Shown: piece by piece, positions 27,292-38,903 of the stretch | Layout: every line of letters starts with the position of its first letter | How positions within the stretch are numbered: the stretch's first letter is position 1 | Origin: a virus | Taxonomy: Duplodnaviria; Caudoviricetes | Strand: one strand, 5' to 3' | DNA length: 53,893 nt | Virus record (IMG/VR): IMGVR_UViG_3300036760_000504 | Span: 1-53,893 of that record | Notes under the pieces: model-generated | Told to the model about the DNA's origin: nothing | The model's input: only the letters and a program-made list of their open reading frames with translations | Database searches by the model: none | Made by a program: the position numbers and the translations under genes

Positions 27292-28248
27292 ATGTTCACC
27301 GCCGACAACCGCCGCCTGATTGAGCACTATCGCCAGCACCCATTTTCCAATGACGCTGAGCTCCTACTGTTCGTCAAGGCCCTGTTTAAGGGGAAGGCCA
27401 GCGAACCCCTCAGCATCCCCCAGGCCCAGGTATGCCCCGAACATGATTCCCCCGCCCAATATTTCTGCGACGCCGTCTTTGAACGCACCCTGAACGCTAT
27501 CTGCTGGGCGAACCGGGGCGGCGGCAAGACCCTCCTGGGGGCGCTGGTGACTTGGCTGGATACGGTATTCAAGGCGGGCTGCTCCACCCAAGTCCTGGCC
27601 GGGTCCCTTGAGCAGAGCAACCGCATGTACGAACACATGACCGGCGGGGGGGATGGCTGGGGCCTGGTGAACGAAAACTTCTATCACCTGCTCGCCTCAG
27701 CCAAACAAATGCGCCGGGGGAAAACTGACAAAGACGGCGAAATGCTCACCCGGTCGATGGTGCTGAAGAACTTCTCAAGCATCAACCTGCTTACCGCCTC
27801 CCCCAAGAGCGTCCGGGGCGCACATCCCCAGAAAGTCAAGCTCGATGAGATTGACGAAATGGACCCCCGGATTTATGAGGCGGCGCTGTCAACCCCGATG
27901 ACTAAGGGCGGGCACCAGGCCAGTACCCACATTTACAGCACCATGCACAAGACTTACGGCCTTATGCAGCGGGTCGTAGAAGAGGCCCCGGCACGGGGCT
28001 ATCGGCTTTACAAGTGGTGTGTTCTGGACGTCTTGGAGCGGTGCAAGGGTCGGGAATGCACCGGGTGCGATCTGTACCCCGAATGCCAGGGCCGGGCCCG
28101 GGAAGCAGACGGCTACTATTCGATTGAAAACGCTATCACCAAAAAGCGCCAGGTGTCTGAACAGACGTGGCTTTCGGAGTACCTGTGCCAGATTCCTAGC
28201 AGTGAAGGGTTGATTTACCCTGAGTTCGATATGTGTCTTGTGGTCTGA
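27292..28248 (+). CDS. Terminase large subunit, ATPase domain only
   Basis: Walker A ANRGGGKT, SVRGAH, Walker B VKLDEID, YSTMH coupling motif; ends at SEYLC..GLIYPEF, the usual ATPase/nuclease linker. Confidence 0.82.
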   Translation: MFTADNRRLIEHYRQHPFSNDAELLLFVKALFKGKASEPLSIPQAQVCPEHDSPAQYFCDAVFERTLNAICWANRGGGKTLLGALVTWLDTVFKAGCSTQVLAGSLEQSNRMYEHMTGGGDGWGLVNENFYHLLASAKQMRRGKTDKDGEMLTRSMVLKNFSSINLLTASPKSVRGAHPQKVKLDEIDEMDPRIYEAALSTPMTKGGHQASTHIYSTMHKTYGLMQRVVEEAPARGYRLYKWCVLDVLERCKGRECTGCDLYPECQGRAREADGYYSIENAITKKRQVSEQTWLSEYLCQIPSSEGLIYPEFDMCLVV

Positions 28249-29409: not shown

Positions 29410-30474
29410 ATGGCGATTAAGGGACTTACACCGCAATTGGCAGAGAGGGGTAAAATAAAAATAGGCGGTCTGGGAGATGAACGGAAAAAGCGGGATGGCT
29501 CCGGGACATACATGCTTCCAATCAAGTACGACCACTTCGTCATTACCACCATGCAGCGGGACGCGGCCGGCCGGTTCATGCCGGATGACGCTCTGATGAA
29601 AATGGTGAACCCGGGCGGCACTAAGCTGGTGGAACTCCCGGTGCAGCTCCTGTACGACGACATTGACCTCAATTTTATGACCCGGTACTCCGCTTATCAG
29701 GGCTCCCGGTGCTGGTGTTCTGGGGACGGTGAAGAAGCTCAACGGCTTACCGGCGACAATGGGAAGTATGCCCCGGTCCCCTGCCCCTGCGAACGGTTAG
29801 CGGCGGATTACAAAGGGCAACCGCGCTGCAAACCCCTGGGCACCCTGCAAGTGCTCCTGGAAGGAGTTGACCGGGTGGGCGGCGTCTGGAAATTCCGTAC
29901 TACATCGTGGAACAGTGTCAACGCTATCCTGTCCAGCCTGGCACTCATCAAAACGATCACGGGTGGTCCTCTGGCCGGGATTCCCTTGACGCTGGTGCTC
30001 TCGCCCAAAACGGTCACGGCCCCAGATGGCAAGAGCATGGTGGCATTCATCGTCTCCATTGAGTTTCGTGGTCCAGAGCAGAAGTTGGCCGAGATCGGTT
30101 ACGAGATCGCCATGCGGCGTATTGAGCGCCGGGTGAAGATGGAAACGGTAGAAGCCGAAGCCCGAAAACTATTGTTGCTCCCACACATGGAACCCCCCCC
30201 GGATCAGGAAGATACCGCTGCGGAGTTCTACCCGGTAGAATTGGGACCGGGGGCAAAGCCGGCCTCACCAGACCCCGCCCAGGGCAAGAAAAAGGCCTCC
30301 CCTACCCAACCACCTACCCAGGCCCCGGAAGTTTCAGCAGCGGGAGGGACGCAAAACCAGGCCCCCGGAAACGGAGGGGAGCAGGAGGCCCCGGAACCCA
30401 ATGAGATCGTCACGGCCCCTCTTCCCCAACCCAAAGGAAACGCGGGGCAGGGCGCTCGTAAGTCTCTATTTTAA
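29410..30474 (+). CDS. Gp3/RDF-like putative recombination (annealing) protein
   Basis: ERGKIKIG..DHFVIT..CSGDGE..CPC..CKPLGTL..GVWKFRTTSWNS; Pro-rich tail; next to an exonuclease. Confidence 0.65.
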   Translation: MAIKGLTPQLAERGKIKIGGLGDERKKRDGSGTYMLPIKYDHFVITTMQRDAAGRFMPDDALMKMVNPGGTKLVELPVQLLYDDIDLNFMTRYSAYQGSRCWCSGDGEEAQRLTGDNGKYAPVPCPCERLAADYKGQPRCKPLGTLQVLLEGVDRVGGVWKFRTTSWNSVNAILSSLALIKTITGGPLAGIPLTLVLSPKTVTAPDGKSMVAFIVSIEFRGPEQKLAEIGYEIAMRRIERRVKMETVEAEARKLLLLPHMEPPPDQEDTAAEFYPVELGPGAKPASPDPAQGKKKASPTQPPTQAPEVSAAGGTQNQAPGNGGEQEAPEPNEIVTAPLPQPKGNAGQGARKSLF

Positions 30475-30480
30475 CCTATA

Positions 30481-30515
30481 GGTAAAGGGGTCCATACCCG
30501 GGCCCCTACCTTTTT
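30481..30515 (+). terminator. Putative intrinsic terminator
   Basis: GGTAAAGGGGTCC-ATACCC-GGGCCCCTACC followed by TTTTT. Confidence 0.5.
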
Positions 30516-30527
30516 GAAGGAGGCACC

Positions 30528-31643
30528 ATGGCAACCCCCAAAAAGCCCCCGGGCTATTCATTTTCAGCCCTGGATTTGTTTGATCACTGCCCTTGGGCGT
30601 ACAAGTTGGTACGTCTCGACCGCATCCCCCGCGGCGAATCCGAACCCCTGATCATCGGCGCCACAATTCACCGGATTGTGGCGGACTATCTGAATCGGCT
30701 GATCCTCAATCGGCTGTCCACCGATTGGCAGTGGGCCGAGGAAGCAGGGAATTTCATCGACGTGCCCGCCGATGTCCTGGAAATCTGGGAACGGTTCTAT
30801 CAAACCTTCGTGCTTCCTCCCGGCATTGAAGACCCCGGCATTGAAAAAAAGCTGGCTTTTGACCGCAACTGGCAGCCGACAGAGTTCTTTTCCGCAGATG
30901 CCTATTTCCGAGCTGTCGTGGACTTCACCTTCCGGCAGGGGGGGCTGGTGGCGGTTGTTGATTGGAAATCTAACTACATGATCTATGAGGTTGAGAAGAA
31001 CCTCCAGGCCAAAATCTACGGATGGGCGGTGCGCCGGGCGATTTACCCCGATGCCCAGGAGATTCTACTGCGACTCCACTTCCTGCGCTACGGCGCCGAA
31101 CGTGAAATCCTCCTGCTCCCGGAGGACCTGGACACCGTGCCGGCGGAGCTTGAAGCCAAGATCGCCGTCATCGAAGCCGAGAAGCATTTTGACCCACGGC
31201 CCGGGTCTTACTGCTCGTGGTGTGGTGTCCAGAGCCACTGTCCTGTCATGCAGTCGGCCCTGGTCCCCGTAGAGATCATGGCCCCAGCGACCCGGGAACA
31301 AGCCGAGAAAGCGGCGACATTGCTCCTGGCCGTGCGGGAAATGGACAAGATGATCACCGGGCGGCTCAAGGAATACGTGCAGGCGAACGGCCCGGTTCAG
31401 GTAGGAGATCAAATCTATGGCCCTTCCCTGTCCACCAGCTACAACCTGGACCCCCGGGGCGTGACCGAACACCTCCTGGCCGAGGGCCTGGAGGTTGACC
31501 AGGTGTGGGGGATGCTGAACCTCACAAAGACGGGGTTGGAGCGGGGCCTCAAGAAGTTGAAGCGCAAGGACCTGCTCGATGCGATCCTGGCCGGGGCTCC
31601 GAGTACTCAGACCGAACGGATCGGATTTGCCAAGGCCAAATAA
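30528..31643 (+). CDS. PD-(D/E)XK (RecB/Cas4-like) exonuclease
   Basis: YSFSAL..CP, GATIH, RAVVD..VVDWKS..QAKIY, CSWC..CP. Confidence 0.85.
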   Translation: MATPKKPPGYSFSALDLFDHCPWAYKLVRLDRIPRGESEPLIIGATIHRIVADYLNRLILNRLSTDWQWAEEAGNFIDVPADVLEIWERFYQTFVLPPGIEDPGIEKKLAFDRNWQPTEFFSADAYFRAVVDFTFRQGGLVAVVDWKSNYMIYEVEKNLQAKIYGWAVRRAIYPDAQEILLRLHFLRYGAEREILLLPEDLDTVPAELEAKIAVIEAEKHFDPRPGSYCSWCGVQSHCPVMQSALVPVEIMAPATREQAEKAATLLLAVREMDKMITGRLKEYVQANGPVQVGDQIYGPSLSTSYNLDPRGVTEHLLAEGLEVDQVWGMLNLTKTGLERGLKKLKRKDLLDAILAGAPSTQTERIGFAKAK

Positions 31644-31805
31644 TTTGCACCTCGCGCCCCCAGTCTCCACCGCTGCTCGCTGAGGCGGGACACGCCGGGA
31701 TGCTCTTTTTGAAGTCAAGAGTTAAACCGCCGGGGGCAAGCCATATCATCATCTGGCGGTAATTCCGAGCACCAGGCGCTGGCCCCGAGCGAGAGAGGGG
31801 CACTT

Positions 31806-32067
31806 GGAACGGGGCGAGGCCGGGCCGGGCACGGCCGGGCAAGGCGGGGCGGGGCCGGGCGAGGCTTGGAACGAGTCCGGGCATGGCGCGGCCTGGCGAG
31901 GTAAGGCTTGGAACGCGGCATGGTATGGCAGGGAACACGGCTTGGCAGGGCCGGACCAGGCGGGGCGTGGCATGGCTGGGCGAGGAACGTGGCATGGCGG
32001 GGCAGTGCCTGACAAGGCAGTGCGCGGCTTGGCAGTGCAAGTCACGGCGAGGCAAGGAACATGGTAG
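31806..32067 (+). repeat. Phased (GGY-NN)n pentamer array A: five units delimited by GGAAC; candidate guide-RNA array
   Basis: GGAAC at 31806, 31868, 31910, 31932, 31984, 32056; units hold 11, 7, 3, 9 and 13 pentamers in exact 5-nt phase. Confidence 0.9.
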
Positions 32068-32095
32068 TTAAAATTAAGGAACACGGAGGAAGCAA

Positions 32096-32764
32096 ATGAA
32101 ACCGAAAACGTACGCAGTGGAACTGATTGGCGAAACCCCCTTACTGATGCATCATGACAACCTGTCATGGACCGAAACGATGAAGCTATGGGAAAAGGAC
32201 CCGGCAAACCAGGCGATCTCCGTTAAGGGTGATGACAGGTCCCCCGCTTGGCGCTGGATCGGCAACCTGTATGTCGAAGCTGGCCGCATCGTGATCCCCA
32301 GCGACAACCTGATGACTATACTCCGGGAAGGCGGCAAGCGGTGCCCGACTGGTAAAGGTCAGACCACCTTCAAGTCGCAGACTCAAAGCGGTTTGTTAGT
32401 GAACCAGAGTTCCTGGCCGCTAAATGTAAACGGGGGAGCGGAAATCCCCTACGCCCCCATCAAAGCGCTCATCGAGGAGCCGGAGTTTCCTCTGCACGAG
32501 ATGCAGGTGCAGGACCTGGGATTCAACCTGTTTGTCAAACGGGCCAAAATTGGCCAGACCAAGCATGTGCGAGTTCGGCCCCGGTTTGACCAGTGGTCTT
32601 GCAAGGGGACCATCACCATATTCGATGAGACGATCTCACGCGATATCCTGGCGAATATCCTGACCTTTGCCGGCACTTACGCCGGTATGGGCGATTGGCG
32701 TCCCTCATCCCCGAAATCACCGGGGCCCTGGGGCAAATTCACCGCCAAGATCAAGGAGGTGTAA
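32096..32764 (+). CDS. Cas7/RAMP-like protein
   Basis: VELIGETPLLMH first strand; IVIPSDNLMTILREGG; RVRPRFDQW; G-rich loop AGTYAGMGDWRP..GPWGKF at the C-terminus. Confidence 0.7.
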   Translation: MKPKTYAVELIGETPLLMHHDNLSWTETMKLWEKDPANQAISVKGDDRSPAWRWIGNLYVEAGRIVIPSDNLMTILREGGKRCPTGKGQTTFKSQTQSGLLVNQSSWPLNVNGGAEIPYAPIKALIEEPEFPLHEMQVQDLGFNLFVKRAKIGQTKHVRVRPRFDQWSCKGTITIFDETISRDILANILTFAGTYAGMGDWRPSSPKSPGPWGKFTAKIKEV

Positions 32765-32765
32765 C

Positions 32766-33236
32766 GTGAGTACAGTGAAATTTGGCTTTGGCGGAATCCC
32801 CACTGACATTGATGTTAGGAGGTTGCAGGAACAGTTCGGCATACCAAAACCAGGAGAGGTCGTGTCCTACGCAGCTATTTCTGAGTGCATAGGCAATTCC
32901 AAAACTGAATCCAGATTTTGGTCGGTTACAAATGCGTGGCGAAAACAGCTTTTCCGGGAAAACAATCTCGTGACAGAGGCCATTCGCAATGAGGGTTTTG
33001 AGTTTCTTGACGCCCATAAGCGGGTTGGGCATTCGGTCGGCAAGTTTAAGCAGGGCCTACGGAGGGTGAGTAAGGCCTCTATGGTCGCAGCGAGCACCGA
33101 CCGGAGAGATTTGACCCCCGAAGAAAACCGTGTTTGCGACCATATACAGAACACGGGGGCCCAGATCAGACTTGCAGCGGCGACAGCGGCCCGGCAATTA
33201 ACTTATGTGGACCCGGTGAAAGTGCCGTTGCCGTAA
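32766..33236 (+). CDS. Partner protein of the RAMP-like gene (156 aa, possible winged helix plus helical tail)
   Basis: GTG 1 nt after the RAMP stop with AAGGAGG RBS; enclosed between the two arrays. Confidence 0.7.
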   Translation: MSTVKFGFGGIPTDIDVRRLQEQFGIPKPGEVVSYAAISECIGNSKTESRFWSVTNAWRKQLFRENNLVTEAIRNEGFEFLDAHKRVGHSVGKFKQGLRRVSKASMVAASTDRRDLTPEENRVCDHIQNTGAQIRLAAATAARQLTYVDPVKVPLP

Positions 33237-33239
33237 CGT

Positions 33240-33301
33240 GGAACGCGGCATGGCTTGGCAGGGCTTGGCCGGGCATGGCAGGGCCGGGCCTGGCAAGGCA
33301 C
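33240..33301 (+). repeat. Phased (GGC-NN)11 array B, one GGAAC-led unit
   Basis: GGAAC GC GGC AT GGC TT GGC AG GGC TT GGC CG GGC AT GGC AG GGC CG GGC CT GGC AA GGC AC. Confidence 0.9.
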
Positions 33302-33303
33302 GG

Positions 33304-33337
33304 AGGGGGCCGCTCACCCCGGCCCCCTAATTTTTTT
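33304..33337 (+). terminator. Intrinsic terminator closing array B
   Basis: AGGGGGCCG-CTCACCC-CGGCCCCCT perfect 9-bp stem, then AATTTTTTT. Confidence 0.75.
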
Positions 33338-33354
33338 AAAGGAGGGAAAAATCA

Positions 33355-33588
33355 ATGAAGACTATCATGCTTATTGTCACGTTGTTAATGTGTTCCGGGT
33401 GCGCTTCGACGCCCATGAATGTCGTCATGACCAACCCGGGAACCGGCAAGTCGATCTACATCGCGCATTATTCGTATGGGGTCGGATTTGGAGCTATAGG
33501 CCCCGCCATCGTAGCCGAACAACAGCAGAAAAAAGCCATCGAGGCTGCCAAGATGATGGGGTTCACTGAAATGCAGGTGGTGAAATGA
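33355..33588 (+). CDS. Small lipoprotein
   Basis: MKTIMLIVTLLMCSG-C lipobox; AGGAGG RBS. Confidence 0.7.
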   Translation: MKTIMLIVTLLMCSGCASTPMNVVMTNPGTGKSIYIAHYSYGVGFGAIGPAIVAEQQQKKAIEAAKMMGFTEMQVVK

Positions 33589-35417
33589 AAATTCAATCCA
33601 TCGAAATCCACAACGTACTCGCCCTGGAGCAGGTGACGCTTGAACTCCAGGCCCCCATAAACCTACTTATCGGCCCTAACGAGGCGGGCAAGTCCAGCAT
33701 TAGGGATAGTCTGCAAGTCGCCCTCACGGGCCAGGCCCGGGGCTTAAAGAAGCACGAGGATCAAGCATACCTCATCCGGGAGGGCGCCAAGGCCGCGGAT
33801 ATCAAGATCATCCTGGCGGACGGCCAGGACCCGATAACCTGGCATAAGACCCCCAAGGTAGCGGCCACCAGAACCGGCCCGATCCCCGATGACGCGGTTA
33901 TGATGAGCATCCTGGCGGACCCCATGCACTTCCTTTCTCTGGAAGATAAGGCCCGGCGGGAGGTGCTTTTCCGGTTGATACCCGGACTTTCCCCCACCTC
34001 CGGCGCCCTGGCAAAAGAGCTGGCAGCGGTCCCCGGGGTTAAAGAAATCATCGGGGAAGAGGTGCACCCGGCCTGGCAAGCGGTTTCCGGCCTGGGTCAC
34101 ATGGCCGCGACTGAGGGTTTTCAGAAAGCCGAAAACGAAGCCATAATCCGACGTCGCCTCGCCAAACGCACCCGAGACGAGGCCCAGGTGAAGGACCCCG
34201 CAACCAAGGCCACCATCGGCGGGGTGCTCCGCATCCTTCCCGACATTCAGTCGGCGGACGTGGAGGCCGGGCTGTCCACGATCCGGGCCGAACGGGACAA
34301 ACTGCAGCGCACCCGGGGCAAAGTAGAGGCCCAGGCCGACCAGCTCCCGGAGTTGGAAGCGGCCCTGGTATCCCTGGAAGCCTCCCCCCCGGAGGCCCCG
34401 GACCCCGACCGCCCGGTGGAGGACTTTGTCAAGGCACTGGAAATCAACCAAGGCATCCTGGTAAAGTGTCGGGCGAAAGTGGCGGCGATGACTGAGGGTC
34501 AGGACCCGCAGAAGTTCCCGGCCCTGTGCCCGGCTTTTAATATCGGGTGCCCCAGCGCCGGGAAGGAGGCCATCAAGGGCACGAAGCCCAAGGACGTGGA
34601 CCCCAAGGCCCTGGCTAAGGCCCAGGCCGACCTCCAGGAGCAGGAAAAGGAAGTCGGGCTGATCGAAGCCGACCTTGCGGCCGCACGGCTGGCCCAGGCC
34701 ACCTATGATGATTACACGAAGCAGCGCCAGGCCCTGGTGGACAAGATCGCCAAGATTAAGGAGGCTCAGGGTCAGGCCGTGGACGCGGCCACCATCGACG
34801 AACAGATCACCGCCCTGGACCAGCGCATGGTTATCGGCCACGAACTGCTGGACGCGGTGCGGGAGTTCTGGCGCAAGAAAGATGCGGCGGACCAGGCGGC
34901 CGGCAAGTTGGCTGAGGTCGAAAAGGAGATTGCCCTGTACGATGCTTTGGCTAAGGCCCTGGCCCCGGATGGTATCCCGAGCACCTTGATCGCTGAGGCC
35001 CTGGGACCGGTGAATGAACGGTTGGCCTTTGCCTCCGGGTATCTATTCCCGGACATTGACGAACATGAACCCCTGCACCTTACGCAAGATCTGGAGGTTT
35101 ACCGGGGGATCACCCCCTATGCGCTTTTATCGAAGTCCGCCAGATACAGAACCGGGATTGCTTTTCAATTTGCCCTGGCCGTTCTATCCGGGGCAAGGAT
35201 CATGATGATCGATGAAGGCGACATCCTGGACCCTCCGAACAGAGCCAACCTCATTGATTTTCTCCTGGCCATCCGTCAGGATTTCGACACGATCCTCGTA
35301 TTCGCCACTAGTGACCATGCCGACCCTTCACCTATCCCGGAGCTGGCAGTCTGGTGGTTGGAGGAGGGGAGGATCAGCCCGGTGGTGATGCAGGAGATGA
35401 AGGAACAGGCCGCCTGA
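33585..35417 (+). CDS. SMC/Rad50(SbcC)-like ATPase
   Basis: Walker A GPNEAGKS, coiled coil with central CPAFNIGCP, LSKSARY signature, Walker B MMIDEGD. Confidence 0.85.
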   Translation: MKIQSIEIHNVLALEQVTLELQAPINLLIGPNEAGKSSIRDSLQVALTGQARGLKKHEDQAYLIREGAKAADIKIILADGQDPITWHKTPKVAATRTGPIPDDAVMMSILADPMHFLSLEDKARREVLFRLIPGLSPTSGALAKELAAVPGVKEIIGEEVHPAWQAVSGLGHMAATEGFQKAENEAIIRRRLAKRTRDEAQVKDPATKATIGGVLRILPDIQSADVEAGLSTIRAERDKLQRTRGKVEAQADQLPELEAALVSLEASPPEAPDPDRPVEDFVKALEINQGILVKCRAKVAAMTEGQDPQKFPALCPAFNIGCPSAGKEAIKGTKPKDVDPKALAKAQADLQEQEKEVGLIEADLAAARLAQATYDDYTKQRQALVDKIAKIKEAQGQAVDAATIDEQITALDQRMVIGHELLDAVREFWRKKDAADQAAGKLAEVEKEIALYDALAKALAPDGIPSTLIAEALGPVNERLAFASGYLFPDIDEHEPLHLTQDLEVYRGITPYALLSKSARYRTGIAFQFALAVLSGARIMMIDEGDILDPPNRANLIDFLLAIRQDFDTILVFATSDHADPSPIPELAVWWLEEGRISPVVMQEMKEQAA

Positions 35418-35672: not shown

Positions 35673-38600
35673 ATGGGACTCATACGCCGAGGATTGGAAT
35701 ATGTGCAGCGATTGGGTGGCCTCTTGGGGAGGGGTTCGGACGACGGGCGTGATATAGTGATGCGCCAGGCCGATCCCATCTCCCCCACCTTCGGGGCCGT
35801 CGAACAGAGGTTCATGGCCGGCTCTTTTAGCCTGTCAAACCTCTTGCCCGGCGTGACAAAACCATACACCCAGCACGTCTGGGTCTATGCCTGTGTCAAT
35901 GCCATCGCCCAGAACATCGCCGGGGTCCCCCTGAATTTCTACTCCGGCACGAAAAAGAACAAGCGCCTGATAGAGTCAGGTCCCCTGGTCAAGTTATTTG
36001 AAACCCCGAACCCCATGATGAGCGGGTATCAGCTCATCGAAGCCACGCTCATTTTCCTGGGGATCACCGGGGAGGCGTTCTACATCCTGGACCGGCCCAA
36101 TATCACCGCCCTGCCGAGAGAAATCTGGACCTTTCACCCTAGCCGGTTTGAGCATGTGCCAGCGAAGAATGGCGGAGGCCAGGGGTGGATTTACAGCAAG
36201 GGCAGCCAACGAATCCCCCTGGAACCGTATGAGATGGTCCATTTCAGGCGGTTCAATCCCTACGATGATTACCGCGGCCTTTCTCCTATTGAGGTGGCCC
36301 GGCTGAGTCTTGAACAGGATAACTATGCCGCGCAATACAACCGCAATTTTTTCATCAATGGCGCCCAGCCCGGCGGGGTCCTGGAAAGCAAAGAGAACCT
36401 GATGCAGGAGGAGTTTGACCGCCTCCTGGCGCAATGGAATGACCGGCACCAGGGCATCGACAAGGTCCACCAGATAGCCCTCCTGGAAGGCGGAATAACT
36501 TACAAGCAAACCAGCCTGTCTCAATCAGACATGCTCTTCCTGGAAGGCCGGAAGCTGAATCGGGATGAAATCCTGGGCGGGATTTACAAGGTCCCCCTGG
36601 GTGAACTTGGGCTTAATGAAGATGTGGGATCTGAAGCGCGGGAAAAGGTGCGCCGGAAACAGTTCTGGGAGACATGCCTTGACCCCCAGATGGTCCTCCT
36701 CGAGATGGGGTTATGGAGCCAGCTATGTCGTGACCTCACCGGCCCTGAAGTATGGCCGGAGTTTGACCGCAAATCCGTCCCGGCCCTTCAGGAAGACCGG
36801 GACCTGCTCTTGGGGCAGGCGGGGAAACTTTGGGCCATGGGCTATCCGGCCAACGTGGTCAACGAATATCTGGATCTGGGGTTGCCTAAGATTGAGGGCG
36901 GCGATACTGGCTACCTCCCCTTCAATTTGCAGCCGGTAGGGTCCGTCGCTTCCGCTCCCTCGGCTACTGAACCGCAGAAAGCTACGGTCATCTCAATTCA
37001 GGATGCTCCGCTAAAATCCCTGCCCGCCCCAGCCAAGGCCAAGCATGACCCTAAGACATATTGGCAGGAATGGAACAAACTGCGCTCTGCTCTGGAGGAA
37101 AAGGCCCACAGCAAAATCAAGAGATTTTTCTATGAGCAGCGCAAGGTCCAACTCAAACTCCTGGCCGACAAGCTGGGCGGGAAAGCGGTCTTCAAAGAGT
37201 TTGTGGACGACCTCCTGTTCCCGGCGGCCGAAGCCAACGAGCAACTCCAAAAGACATTATCCGGTCTTTACCTGAACATCGGCCAGGCCGCCGGTGAAGA
37301 CCTCTACGCCGGTCTGAATTTTGACCCTTCGGACTTTGTTATGGCCGACAGCGACGCCATTTCCGTTCTGCTGGAAAAGCTCGTGCAGAAGGTGGTGGAT
37401 ATTAACGAGATCACCCGCAGTCAACTCCGGGACGCTATATCTGAGGGCCTGTCGAAAGTTGAGTCTGTCGGCAAAATTCAGGACCGGGTGCGAGAAGTCT
37501 TCAACTCCTATGAGCACCCTGACAAAGGATCGTTTTCCCGTAGTTTGACCATTGCCCGAACGGAAACGGGCCAGGCCATGGCAACGGCTCGGGATTCGGC
37601 CATGGACCAGTTGAAGGTGGAGAAACTTGAGTGGGGCACGGCGGGGGACGGGGAAGTCAGGGAATCCCACGCGGCCCAGGATGGGATGATAGTGCAGCGC
37701 GGTGAAACCTTCCCGAACGGCTGTCGTTATCCCTGCGATCCGGCGGGGGAGGCGGGGGAAGTGATCAACTGCTTTCTGGACCACCAGGTTCCTATTTTCA
37801 CTACTGAAGGTTGGAAACCCATTGGCAAGATTCGGCCTGGCGACATGGTGCTTACTCATAGAAACCGCTTCCGGCCTGTTTTAAGGCTGTCACCCCAGCC
37901 CACTTATGCCGGCAAAGCAGTCAAGTTGGTCCTGTCTGGTACTACAGGGAACGGACGCCGCGGCATCTTGATTACCCCGAACCACAAATTTTTAATGGCG
38001 GGGGGTTCATGGAAGCGGGCACAGGACATTCGGGCTGGCGAGTCTGTGCAGGTCATGGCTTCTTTTTGCGGGTATTGCGGCACCCCCATCCCCTACTGGC
38101 GGAAATACTGTGACCATTCCTGCTTGAGCAAAGCCATTACCAAAAAGCAATGGAGCAACTCGGCCCACCGGGAAAACATCAGCCGCAAGGCCAGTGCGCA
38201 GATGATAAGGGAATATGCGGCGGGGATAAGAGACCCGAAAGAAATTGTCAAAAAGGCCCGGAGGGTTTGCTTCGAGAAGTATGGTGCCGGTGGAATTTTT
38301 GCAATAGCGGATCGGTCTCCAGGGACGCCGTTTCGAGAAAGCATAGAGGCCGGAATCACCAGGAAATGGGGGTCTCGTCTGGCAATGCTCAAAAAGACGG
38401 CCTTCGTTGGTTGCGGCAAGGCAAGTTGGCATGGCTCAAGTTTTGACCGGAAGCTGAAAGCAGTGTTAGACAAGGAAGGCAGAGGATACATTCAACAGTT
38501 CCGGGTAGGTAAAAGGCGAGTCGATTTTTACCTGCCTGATGAAAAGCTCTTCATTGAATGTGACACCCCTATCTATCACGGCCCAGAAAGCGTGTTTGGC

Positions 38601-38903
38601 TACCATAGAAACGAACGGAAAAGAGACCTCGAAATTCTTACTCAATACCCAGACCACAAAATAGAGCACATAATTTTTGACGGCAATGCTCCCCCCCGCC
38701 ATAAGACCTTCGACCTGCTCACTTTAAATCATGCCGGAACTTACGCCCAAATTAAAGTTGAAATATCCGAGGCCGACATTGTTGAACTCAGGAAGCCCCG
38801 GCGCACCTATAACTTCGCAGTAGAAGAGGATGAAAGCTATATAGCCAAGGGGTTTGTCGCATCGAACTGCCGGTGTGTCAGCATTCCCGTACTGGAGGGT
38901 TGA
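35673..38903 (+). CDS. HK97-type portal fused to gpF/gp7-like head morphogenesis domain, containing an intein
   Basis: WVYACVNAIAQNIA, RGLSPIE, FFINGAQPGGVL; then RSLTIARTET, W.TAGDGEVRESH, IN-C[intein]N-CRC. Confidence 0.9.
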   Translation: MGLIRRGLEYVQRLGGLLGRGSDDGRDIVMRQADPISPTFGAVEQRFMAGSFSLSNLLPGVTKPYTQHVWVYACVNAIAQNIAGVPLNFYSGTKKNKRLIESGPLVKLFETPNPMMSGYQLIEATLIFLGITGEAFYILDRPNITALPREIWTFHPSRFEHVPAKNGGGQGWIYSKGSQRIPLEPYEMVHFRRFNPYDDYRGLSPIEVARLSLEQDNYAAQYNRNFFINGAQPGGVLESKENLMQEEFDRLLAQWNDRHQGIDKVHQIALLEGGITYKQTSLSQSDMLFLEGRKLNRDEILGGIYKVPLGELGLNEDVGSEAREKVRRKQFWETCLDPQMVLLEMGLWSQLCRDLTGPEVWPEFDRKSVPALQEDRDLLLGQAGKLWAMGYPANVVNEYLDLGLPKIEGGDTGYLPFNLQPVGSVASAPSATEPQKATVISIQDAPLKSLPAPAKAKHDPKTYWQEWNKLRSALEEKAHSKIKRFFYEQRKVQLKLLADKLGGKAVFKEFVDDLLFPAAEANEQLQKTLSGLYLNIGQAAGEDLYAGLNFDPSDFVMADSDAISVLLEKLVQKVVDINEITRSQLRDAISEGLSKVESVGKIQDRVREVFNSYEHPDKGSFSRSLTIARTETGQAMATARDSAMDQLKVEKLEWGTAGDGEVRESHAAQDGMIVQRGETFPNGCRYPCDPAGEAGEVINCFLDHQVPIFTTEGWKPIGKIRPGDMVLTHRNRFRPVLRLSPQPTYAGKAVKLVLSGTTGNGRRGILITPNHKFLMAGGSWKRAQDIRAGESVQVMASFCGYCGTPIPYWRKYCDHSCLSKAITKKQWSNSAHRENISRKASAQMIREYAAGIRDPKEIVKKARRVCFEKYGAGGIFAIADRSPGTPFRESIEAGITRKWGSRLAMLKKTAFVGCGKASWHGSSFDRKLKAVLDKEGRGYIQQFRVGKRRVDFYLPDEKLFIECDTPIYHGPESVFGYHRNERKRDLEILTQYPDHKIEHIIFDGNAPPRHKTFDLLTLNHAGTYAQIKVEISEADIVELRKPRRTYNFAVEEDESYIAKGFVASNCRCVSIPVLEG
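37770..38867 (+). mobile_element. Intein (366 aa) with DUF559/Vsr-like endonuclease
   Basis: N-term CFLDHQVPIFTTEGWKPIG..GDMVLTH; ITPNHKFL block B; TYNFAVEEDESYIAKGFVASN then +1 Cys; internal QFRVGKRRVDFYLPDEKLFIECD..YH. Confidence 0.9.

What the first reader, a model, noticed from the sequence alone, without database searches (positions are those of the whole stretch)
31806..32067. GGAAC punctuation splits the arrays into six discrete guide-like units
Seen: GGAAC recurs at 31806, 31868, 31910, 31932, 31984, 32056 and 33240. Every intervening stretch is exactly 2+5n nt (57, 37, 17, 47, 67; array B 57). A hairpin GCCCC-N10-GGGGC lies just before the first unit. Inference: GGAAC is a processing or boundary signal that releases individual RNAs of different lengths, and hence filaments with different subunit numbers.
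Basis: partly seen in the sequence, partly recalled or inferred. Interest (0 to 1): 0.8.

Follow-up and report, generated by a model that had tools for sequence, protein, structure and literature searches.

The report
VIPR guide array with AA punctuation
The GGAAC marks are two-base "commas" between the guide RNAs of a phage VIPR system, a CRISPR-like DNA silencer first described in 2026, so the element is real and of a known kind, with a comma type that the parts of the papers I could read do not describe.

Summary
Every gap is 5n+2.

The locus is a VIPR system (bioRxiv 10.64898/2026.04.26.720920):
- The 222-aa gene is a Vipr RAMP protein: SUSP1 Vipr in the PDB at E 1.9e-16 by profile, with a Cas7-like fold.
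- The 156-aa gene is its conserved partner (vap).
- The arrays are YNNGG vrRNA repeats.

In that notation GGAAC is GG-AA-C, a 2-nt spacer between tracts of 12, 8, 4, 10 and 14 repeats, plus 12 in array B.

The delimiter is conserved. In 93 distinct related loci, 163 of 210 short junctions are exactly 2 nt. Of these, 94 read GGAAC and 147 read GGA-N-Y. Arrays are bracketed by half-sites, and inner tracts are guide-sized (median 10). The layout marks one Vipr clade. A near-identical strain lacks one AA, which fuses 4+10 repeats in register.

Not shown: RNA ends (no RNA run listed) and targets (none found).

The system is known. The published "staggered" arrays overlap by 1 nt, whereas these have a 2-nt spacer. 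This scan has noted VIPR arrays on other DNA many times (715 notes).

The parts
31782..31801 (+). Hairpin GCCCC-N10-GGGGC upstream of array A. Present, but not conserved in relatives.
   Evidence: -10.5 kcal/mol; upstream region z +0.77; 1 of 27 related arrays with z below -2.
31806..31809 (+). 5' bracket half-site GGAA before the first tract.
   Evidence: GG at -4/-3 upstream of the first tract in 27 of 35 related arrays, GGA in 21 of 35.
31810..31869 (+). Guide tract A1: 12 YNNGG repeats, 12 of 12 conform.
31870..31871 (+). AA spacer.
31872..31911 (+). Guide tract A2: 8 repeats, 7 of 8 conform.
31912..31913 (+). AA spacer.
31914..31933 (+). Tract A3: only 4 repeats.
   Evidence: Tracts of 4-7 repeats are 9 of 100 inner tracts in relatives.
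31934..31935 (+). AA spacer that is absent in a near-identical strain (run X2). There A3 and A4 are fused in register into 14 repeats.
   Evidence: on one contig, 31934 A>C and single-base deletions at 31935 and 31937.
31936..31985 (+). Guide tract A4: 10 repeats, 9 of 10 conform.
   Evidence: Two X2 substitutions (31943, 31958) fall on NN positions.
31986..31987 (+). AA spacer.
31988..32057 (+). Tract A5: 14 repeats, degenerate scaffold (9 of 14 conform).
   Evidence: X2 substitution 31995 falls on an NN position.
32058..32064 (+). 3' bracket half-site AA-C-AT-GG that closes array A.
   Evidence: A-N-Y-NN-GG follows the last tract in 23 of 35 related arrays.
32078..32082 (+). Eighth GGAAC, just before the ribosome-binding site GGAGG of vipr. 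No pentamer tract follows it; role unknown.
32096..32764 (+). vipr: 222-aa RAMP protein that binds one repeat per protomer (by homology).
   Evidence: SUSP1 Vipr, PDB 36pp; pLDDT 97.6, Cas7/Csm3 fold; conserved H19, R161, D200, W201, R202.
32766..33236 (+). vap-like partner gene: 156 aa, GTG start, winged-helix-like N-terminal half plus two long helices.
   Evidence: homologue on the same strand in 68 of 103 loci; pLDDT 87.6; only weak fold matches, best E 0.035.
33240..33243 (+). 5' bracket half-site GGAA of array B.
33244..33303 (+). Guide tract B1: 12 repeats, 12 of 12 conform.
33304..33338 (+). Intrinsic terminator (9-bp stem, T run) that closes the operon directly after B1.

Best explanation
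The locus 31806-33338 is a VIPR (Viral Interference Programmable Repeat) system of a complete 53.9-kb phage genome. It consists of vipr, a vap-like gene and two flanking vrRNA arrays on the same strand.

Each array is a run of YNNGG repeats. By homology with the solved SUSP1 system, one Vipr protomer binds each repeat, buries GGY and presents the NN bases for gapped pairing with DNA.

GGAAC is GG-AA-C: the last GG of one guide tract, a 2-nt A-rich spacer, and the first pyrimidine of the next tract. The spacer shifts the pentamer register by +2. It also puts a purine where the next protomer needs a pyrimidine, so the filament cannot continue across it (inferred).

The array is therefore read as separate guides of 12, 8, 4, 10, 14 and 12 repeats, each giving a filament of that many subunits. 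Whether the RNA is also cut at the exposed AA is inferred, not shown.
For: Identity:
- SUSP1 Vipr (PDB 36pp) matches at E 6.3e-7 with the single protein and 1.9e-16 with the family profile.
- In those alignments SUSP1 H17, R138, D177, W178 and R179 pair with H19, R161, D200, W201 and R202. All five are at least 90% conserved in 70 homologues.
- The AF2 model has pLDDT 97.6, and its best PDB folds are type VII Cas7 and Csm3.
- All 80 viral loci fetched with the family carry YNNGG tracts on the vipr strand, with few or none on the other strand.
- A vap homologue lies on the same strand in 68 of 103 loci.

Delimiter:
- In 93 distinct related loci, 163 of 210 short junctions are exactly 2 nt. Of these, 94 read GGAAC and 147 read GGA-N-Y.
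- The first spacer base is A in 149 of 165 junctions. The unit before the spacer is C-R-A-GG (R 155, A 119 of 165). The unit after it starts Y-R (141 of 165). Interior NN bases are near even.
- Arrays are bracketed by half-sites: GG upstream in 27 of 35, A-N-Y-NN-GG downstream in 23 of 35.
- Inner tracts have a median of 10 repeats and an interquartile range of 9-12 (n = 100). Type II vrRNAs are reported with 9-16 repeats (paper Results).
- All 39 Vipr rows with 2-nt-spacer arrays lie in one 43-row group (SH-aLRT 84, quick tree). The 39-row sister group has none.

Natural variation:
- A contig of run X2, near-identical over 1.5 kb, lacks the AA at 31934-31935 and fuses A3 and A4 in register.
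- Its 3 substitutions inside array A all fall on NN positions.

Against: - No RNA evidence: no listed run is RNA, so ends and processing are unknown.
- No natural target was found for A1, A4 or B1 under the published 1-nt-skip rule. So no match shows that pairing stops at a unit boundary.
- One unit (A3) has only 4 repeats and one (A5) has a decayed scaffold, so not all six need be working guides.
- The window's own last units fit the C-R-A-GG consensus only in part: 2 of 6 tracts have both R and A, A3 has R but not A, and A1, A2 and B1 fit neither.
- The tree is the quick one. The careful search did not finish, the key branch has SH-aLRT 84, and the root is at the midpoint.
- The alignment of the N-terminal half to SUSP1 is weak (domain i-Evalue 3.4).
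- The characterised type II vrRNAs end in a structured tail of about 40 nt that caps the filament. No such tail exists here, so the end-defining mechanism is not the published one.
Confidence: 0.7

Rival explanations
1. Boundary without cutting. The whole array A stays one transcript of about 250 nt. The AA spacers only break the register, so several Vipr filaments sit side by side on one RNA and no discrete small RNAs are released.
For: No ribozyme, hairpin handle or tail lies between the units. Nothing in the sequence names a nuclease. All the comparative evidence fits a register break as well as it fits a cut.
Against: Published VIPR systems give discrete vrRNAs of about 100 nt or less (paper Results). 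The legend of fig. S18 speaks of 'individual processed vrRNAs' in tail-less arrays. An unprotected AA linker between two filaments is an obvious target for cell RNases (inference).
Confidence: 0.2
2. Slippage scars. The AA insertions are neutral 2-nt indels in a pentamer repeat and carry no function. The whole array acts as one long guide or is decaying.
For: A 2-nt indel at one junction separates two near-identical strains, so such events do happen. Tract A5 is degenerate.
Against: Neutral indels would not be of one length (163 of 210 short junctions are 2 nt) or of one composition (A first in 149 of 165). They would not have biased flanking units, would not bracket the array ends, and would not space themselves at a median of 10 repeats.
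Confidence: 0.05
3. DNA-level repeats, for example a centromere-like or packaging site bound by a DNA-binding protein, or a protein-coding ORF (the 87-aa frame 31804-32067).
For: An 87-aa ORF is open across array A. The locus lies between terminase and portal genes.
Against: The adjacent protein is a homologue of an RNA-binding RAMP with a solved RNA-bound structure. The repeats are strand-specific with respect to vipr in all 80 viral loci. A 5-nt period with +2 shifts cannot keep a reading frame, and tract numbers differ freely between relatives.
Confidence: 0.03

Closest known systems
VIPR systems, type II reference systems of Escherichia phage SUSP1 and a Pseudomonas fulva prophage (bioRxiv 10.64898/2026.04.26.720920 and 10.64898/2026.04.26.720927)
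   Same: A phage-borne two-gene module (vipr RAMP plus vap) flanked by YNNGG / GGY-NN repeat RNAs on the same strand. The GG- and Y-binding residues are conserved. Tracts are guide-sized. NN positions are variable.
   Different: The protein is distant: only the C-terminal half aligns well, at E 6.3e-7 with the single sequence. There is no 3' tail of about 40 nt and no pseudoknot between guides; only 2 nt (AA) separate them. Expression, binding and targets are untested here.
'Staggered vrRNA arrays' of VIPR (legend of fig. S18 of 10.64898/2026.04.26.720920; figure not visible to me)
   Same: [quoted passage not shown]
   Different: [quoted passage not shown] Here neighbours are separated by a 2-nt A-rich spacer (register +2). 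None of the 210 short junctions in 93 related loci had a gap of -1. I could not see the figure or the supplementary data, so the authors may have seen this layout too.
Class 1 CRISPR backbone filaments (Cas7/Csm3/Cmr4 on crRNA)
   Same: The same RAMP fold: the best PDB fold matches are type VII Cas7 and Csm3, E about 1e-5. One subunit binds per fixed number of RNA bases, and filament length is set by RNA length.
   Different: The period is 5 nt, not 6. There is no repeat-spacer array, no cas1/cas2 and no Cas6 or handle. The guide information is non-contiguous. The system sits in a virus.

Membership tests
VIPR system | Vipr protein homologous to characterised Vipr | tested here: met
   PDB 36pp 'SUSP1 Vipr protein': E 6.3e-7 (phmmer) and E 1.9e-16 (profile of 70 homologues).
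VIPR system | Minimal RAMP fold (RRM core, G-loop, thumb) | tested here: met
   AF2 pLDDT 97.6, pTM 0.91. Foldseek against the PDB gives 56 matches at E <= 0.001; the listed ones are CRISPR RAMP complexes: type VII Cas7, Csm and Cmr subunits, Cas7-11. The G-loop GDWRP is at 199-203.
VIPR system | Residues that hold G1, G2 and Y3 (SUSP1 H17, R138, D177, W178, R179) | tested here: met
   They align to H19, R161, D200, W201 and R202, each at least 90% conserved in alignment A1. The H17/H19 pairing rests on a weak N-terminal alignment.
VIPR system | Tandem YNNGG (GGY/NN) repeats next to vipr, on its strand | tested here: met
   In this genome only this locus has tracts of 6 or more fully conforming units. 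All 80 viral relatives have such tracts on the vipr strand.
VIPR system | GGY constant, NN hypervariable | tested here: met
   Interior NN composition is near even. No guide is shared between the window and 103 other loci. All 3 array A substitutions in strain X2 are at NN positions.
VIPR system | Accessory vap gene beside vipr | tested here: met
   A homologue of the 156-aa gene lies on the same strand in 68 of 103 loci. Its fold is winged-helix-like, with weak matches only. Which published vap class it is: not testable, supplements closed.
VIPR system | vrRNAs are expressed and bound by Vipr | not testable with these tools
   No RNA run is listed for this DNA.
VIPR system | Guides match natural DNA targets by the 1-nt-skip rule | tested here: inconclusive
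   No match above the shuffled-guide null in the window and 103 loci. Exact scans of viral and metagenome contigs gave 0 hits or chance-level hits. Scans with mismatches over the collections were not possible.
VIPR type II vrRNA architecture | Invariable structured 3' tail (about 40 nt) after each repeat tract | tested here: not met
   Only 2 nt lie between tracts. B1 runs straight into the terminator.
VIPR 'staggered' arrays (fig. S18 legend) | Neighbouring vrRNAs overlap by 1 nt | tested here: not met
   Junctions here are +2 nt. 0 of 210 short junctions in related loci have a gap of -1. The figure itself was not seen.
CRISPR-Cas | Array of direct repeats of about 25-40 nt with spacers | tested here: not met
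   Tandem Repeats Finder gives only periods of 5, 10 and 15 at the locus.

The most novel reading that the evidence does not exclude
A large, tail-less subfamily of VIPR systems, found in phages of many phyla, sets its guide boundaries with nothing but a 2-nt purine spacer (GG-A-N-Y). It uses no structured tail, ribozyme or 1-nt overlap. The purine cannot enter the pyrimidine pocket of the next Vipr protomer, so filament assembly itself parses the transcript into guides, and the exposed spacer is then trimmed. Single 2-nt indels would therefore split or fuse guides. This is seen in nature between two sediment strains, where 4+10 repeats become 14. It would give these phages a one-step way to change guide length and footprint. 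Two helix-1 positions (T74, R77) that separate this clade from its tailed sister clade may be the protein side of the change.
Probability: 0.35. Interest if true: 0.55.

Novelty: new variant of a known kind. Interest (0 to 1): 0.38.

Why it matters
VIPR is a new class of RNA-guided DNA binder, and only its tailed type II guides have been studied at the bench. How guides are delimited in tail-less arrays is open. The preprint says that, of the other layouts, the ribozyme and single-guide ones were confirmed by small-RNA sequencing.

A boundary made of two bases would be the simplest known punctuation of a guide-RNA array. It is easy to test by deleting or inserting AA. It would also help in designing compact multi-guide VIPR arrays.

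For annotation, the rule (YNNGG)n-AA-(YNNGG)m with bracketing half-sites lets the guides of this clade be called from sequence alone.

Tried and rejected
- Rfam at gathering thresholds over the whole window: 0 families.
- Sigma-70 promoter scan of 31500-33500: nothing upstream of array A. Only the terminator after array B was found.
- Fold of 31740-32100: z -3.8, but with no recurring element between units.
- Upstream hairpin: not conserved.
- Parity of tract lengths (all even here): chance.
- Shared guides, to look for gain or loss of whole units: none between the window and 103 loci. Sharing occurs only among near-identical loci.
- Self-targets and targets in relatives' VIPR loci: none above the shuffled-guide null.
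- Natural targets in the collections:
  - B1 full length in viral contigs: 0.
  - B1 units 2-10: 3 hits that extend at chance level, 19, 19 and 21 of 24.
  - A1 units 2-11: 0.
  - A4 full length: 0.
  - B1 units 2-11 in metagenome contigs: 4 hits, each 21 of 24, in contigs of 32-45% GC; judged chance.
  - Exact-match scans miss targets with mismatches, so this is no evidence of absence.
- Expression: no RNA holder listed.
- Host: relatives sit in genomes of many phyla, so no host was inferred and no host-genome pattern search was made.
- vap fold: no PDB match at E <= 0.001.
- The 87-aa ORF over array A: rejected as a by-product of the repeat.
- Complex prediction was not used. Supplementary files of the papers are closed. 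The figures, tables and data files on VIPR types, on the array architectures and on targets (figs S16-S18, data S3 and S4) may already show this layout.

Full report
**What is there.** The stretches between them are 57, 37, 17, 47, 67 and 17 nt. All are 5n+2, and their bodies are NNGGC pentamers. GGAAC is not enriched in the window as a whole: 112 matches against a shuffle mean of 133.9. But 7 copies fall in the 277 nt of array A, where 0.38 are expected. Among pentamer tracts of six or more units, only those at this locus are fully conforming. The window is a complete virus record with direct terminal repeats, from a sediment metagenome.

**What it is.** The 222-aa gene after array A has no Pfam family and belongs to PHROG 4652, of unknown function.
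- It matches one solved structure, 'SUSP1 Vipr protein' (PDB 36pp), at E 6.3e-7 alone and at E 1.9e-16 with a profile of 70 homologues.
- Its AF2 model is very confident (pLDDT 97.6). Its best PDB folds are Cas7-type RAMPs of type VII and type III CRISPR complexes.

Vipr is the protein of VIPR systems, described in 2026 preprints. VIPR systems are a phage-borne pair of genes (vipr, vap) flanked by vrRNAs made of 9-16 YNNGG repeats.
- One Vipr protomer binds each repeat, hides GGY and presents the NN bases.
- The NN bases pair with DNA while skipping every third base.
- My sources are 10.64898/2026.04.26.720920 (Results, Discussion and one Methods section read) and 10.64898/2026.04.26.720927 (section 5 and passages).

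The residues that hold the two G and the pyrimidine in SUSP1 align to H19, R161, D200, W201 and R202, all conserved in the family. The 156-aa gene is a conserved partner, found on the same strand in 68 of 103 related loci. It has a winged-helix-like N-terminal half and only weak fold matches.

**Re-reading GGAAC.** In the paper's YNNGG notation, array A is (YNNGG)12-AA-(YNNGG)8-AA-(YNNGG)4-AA-(YNNGG)10-AA-(YNNGG)14-AA-C-AT-GG. Array B is GGAA-(YNNGG)12 followed at once by an intrinsic terminator. So GGAAC is the last GG of one tract, a 2-nt spacer, and the first C of the next tract. Each spacer shifts the register by +2. Tract A5 has a decayed scaffold (9 of 14 repeats conform), and the stretch after 32060 is not a tract.

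**Is the delimiter conserved?** I fetched 80 viral loci and 23 genome loci with Vipr relatives of 38-82% identity.
- All 80 viral loci carry YNNGG tracts on the vipr strand, with few or none on the other strand.
- After removing duplicates (93 distinct array contents, window excluded), 163 of 210 junctions of 12 nt or less are exactly 2 nt. Of these, 94 read GGAAC and 147 read GGA-N-Y. A 2-nt junction occurs in 41 loci, and 26 of them have at least one exact GGAAC.
- The first spacer base is A in 149 of 165 junctions. The unit before the spacer is C-R-A-GG (purine 155, A 119 of 165). The unit after it begins Y-R (141 of 165). Interior NN bases are near even (window included).
- In 35 distinct arrays with two or more such junctions, GG stands at -4/-3 before the first tract in 27, and A-N-Y-NN-GG follows the last tract in 23. 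Every guide thus has the signal on both sides, including the outermost ones.
- Inner tracts have a median of 10 repeats and an interquartile range of 9-12 (n = 100). They are as often odd as even.
- On a quick maximum-likelihood tree of 85 Vipr proteins, all 39 rows with 2-nt-spacer arrays fall in one 43-row group (SH-aLRT 84). The 39-row sister group has none; it has spacers of 13-36 nt or 40-90 nt, or single tracts. The careful search did not finish and the root is at the midpoint.

**Natural variation.** Contigs of a second sediment run (X2) hold a near-identical strain. On one 1,542-nt contig the AA at 31934-31935 is gone: 31934 A>C, with 31935 and 31937 deleted. A3 and A4 therefore become one in-register tract of 14 repeats. 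The three substitutions inside array A (31943, 31958, 31995) all fall on NN positions. Boundaries thus come and go by 2-nt events, and the guide-defining bases are the ones that change. The direction of the event is unknown. X1 may be the source sample of this DNA and is not independent.

**How it most likely works.**
- Shown by homology: Vipr binds one repeat per protomer, and RNA length sets filament length.
- Inferred: the published pyrimidine pocket 'sterically excludes purines', so an A right after GG should stop the filament. The next filament starts at the following C in a new register.
- Inferred: the bare AA linker is then cut or trimmed.
- Not shown: any RNA end. No RNA run is listed.
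- Not shown: any target. Scans of the window, of the relatives' loci, of viral contigs and of metagenome contigs gave nothing above chance. I therefore could not test whether pairing stops at unit boundaries.

**Comparison with what is known.** The system is a member of a published kind. The array layout differs from the characterised type II, where each tract ends in a structured tail of about 40 nt. It also differs from the wording of the fig. [quoted passage not shown] Here they are 2 nt apart, and no junction with a gap of -1 occurs in the related loci.
- The string GGAAC does not occur in the main text of the first paper.
- A search for vrRNA, VIPR and staggered listed four relevant papers. 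Of the fourth, 10.64898/2026.10.21.760802, I read passages only.
- Earlier notes of this scan describe one-base-slip arrays (GGCA|GG) in other phages, for example e1-5861242 and e1-6136648. Those notes gave me the contrast. They are unchecked AI notes.
- VIPR arrays have been noted by this scan 715 times in at least 477 genomes.

**Verdict.** It is a real VIPR array with a clade-specific 2-nt comma. Interest is moderate to low, because the system is already known.

Noticed in passing
window 31802 and 33287-33316 (run X2): In run X2 one contig matches the window up to 31802 and then continues with unrelated AT-rich sequence. Summed contig depth is 20.8 before the locus, 12.7 across it and 24.7 after it. 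Part of that related population may lack this VIPR cassette or carry something else in its place.
   Followed up: no
window 32315-32326 (Vipr residues 74 and 77) and after residue 85: Two positions on RNA-binding helix-1 separate the 2-nt-spacer clade from its sister clade: T74 (81%) against R (85%), and R77 (100%) against M (97%). The sister clade also has a 2-residue P-G insertion after residue 85. The structure paper places pyrimidine-pocket residues on this helix.
   Followed up: partly
loci L035-L056 and others (sister clade): Related Vipr loci have tracts separated by 52-62 nt (tail-like), by about 18 nt, or single tracts. Within the near-identical group L035-L056, some guides are shared and others replaced, so guide turnover is visible there.
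   Followed up: partly
locus L098 (Nanoarchaeia MAG contig) and L085-L104: 2-nt-spacer VIPR loci sit on contigs binned to very different lineages: Acidobacteriota, Nitrospirota, Bacillota, Planctomycetota, Lentisphaerota, Thermodesulfobacteriota and one Nanoarchaeia MAG. The last may be a binning artefact or an archaeal virus.
   Followed up: no
window 32078-32095: An eighth GGAAC lies 22 nt after the last junction and directly before the GGAGG ribosome-binding site of vipr. A relative (L028) has a similar 'aacaaggaac' after its array. Vipr might bind here and regulate its own translation; this is speculation.
   Followed up: no
window 29410-31643 and 33585-35417: The VIPR module sits inside a block of recombination-type genes: a Gp3-like PF18897 protein, a PD-(D/E)XK exonuclease and an SbcC/Rad50-like ATPase. 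The block lies between a short terminase-like ORF (27292-28248) and a 1076-aa portal-region ORF (35673-38903).
   Followed up: no
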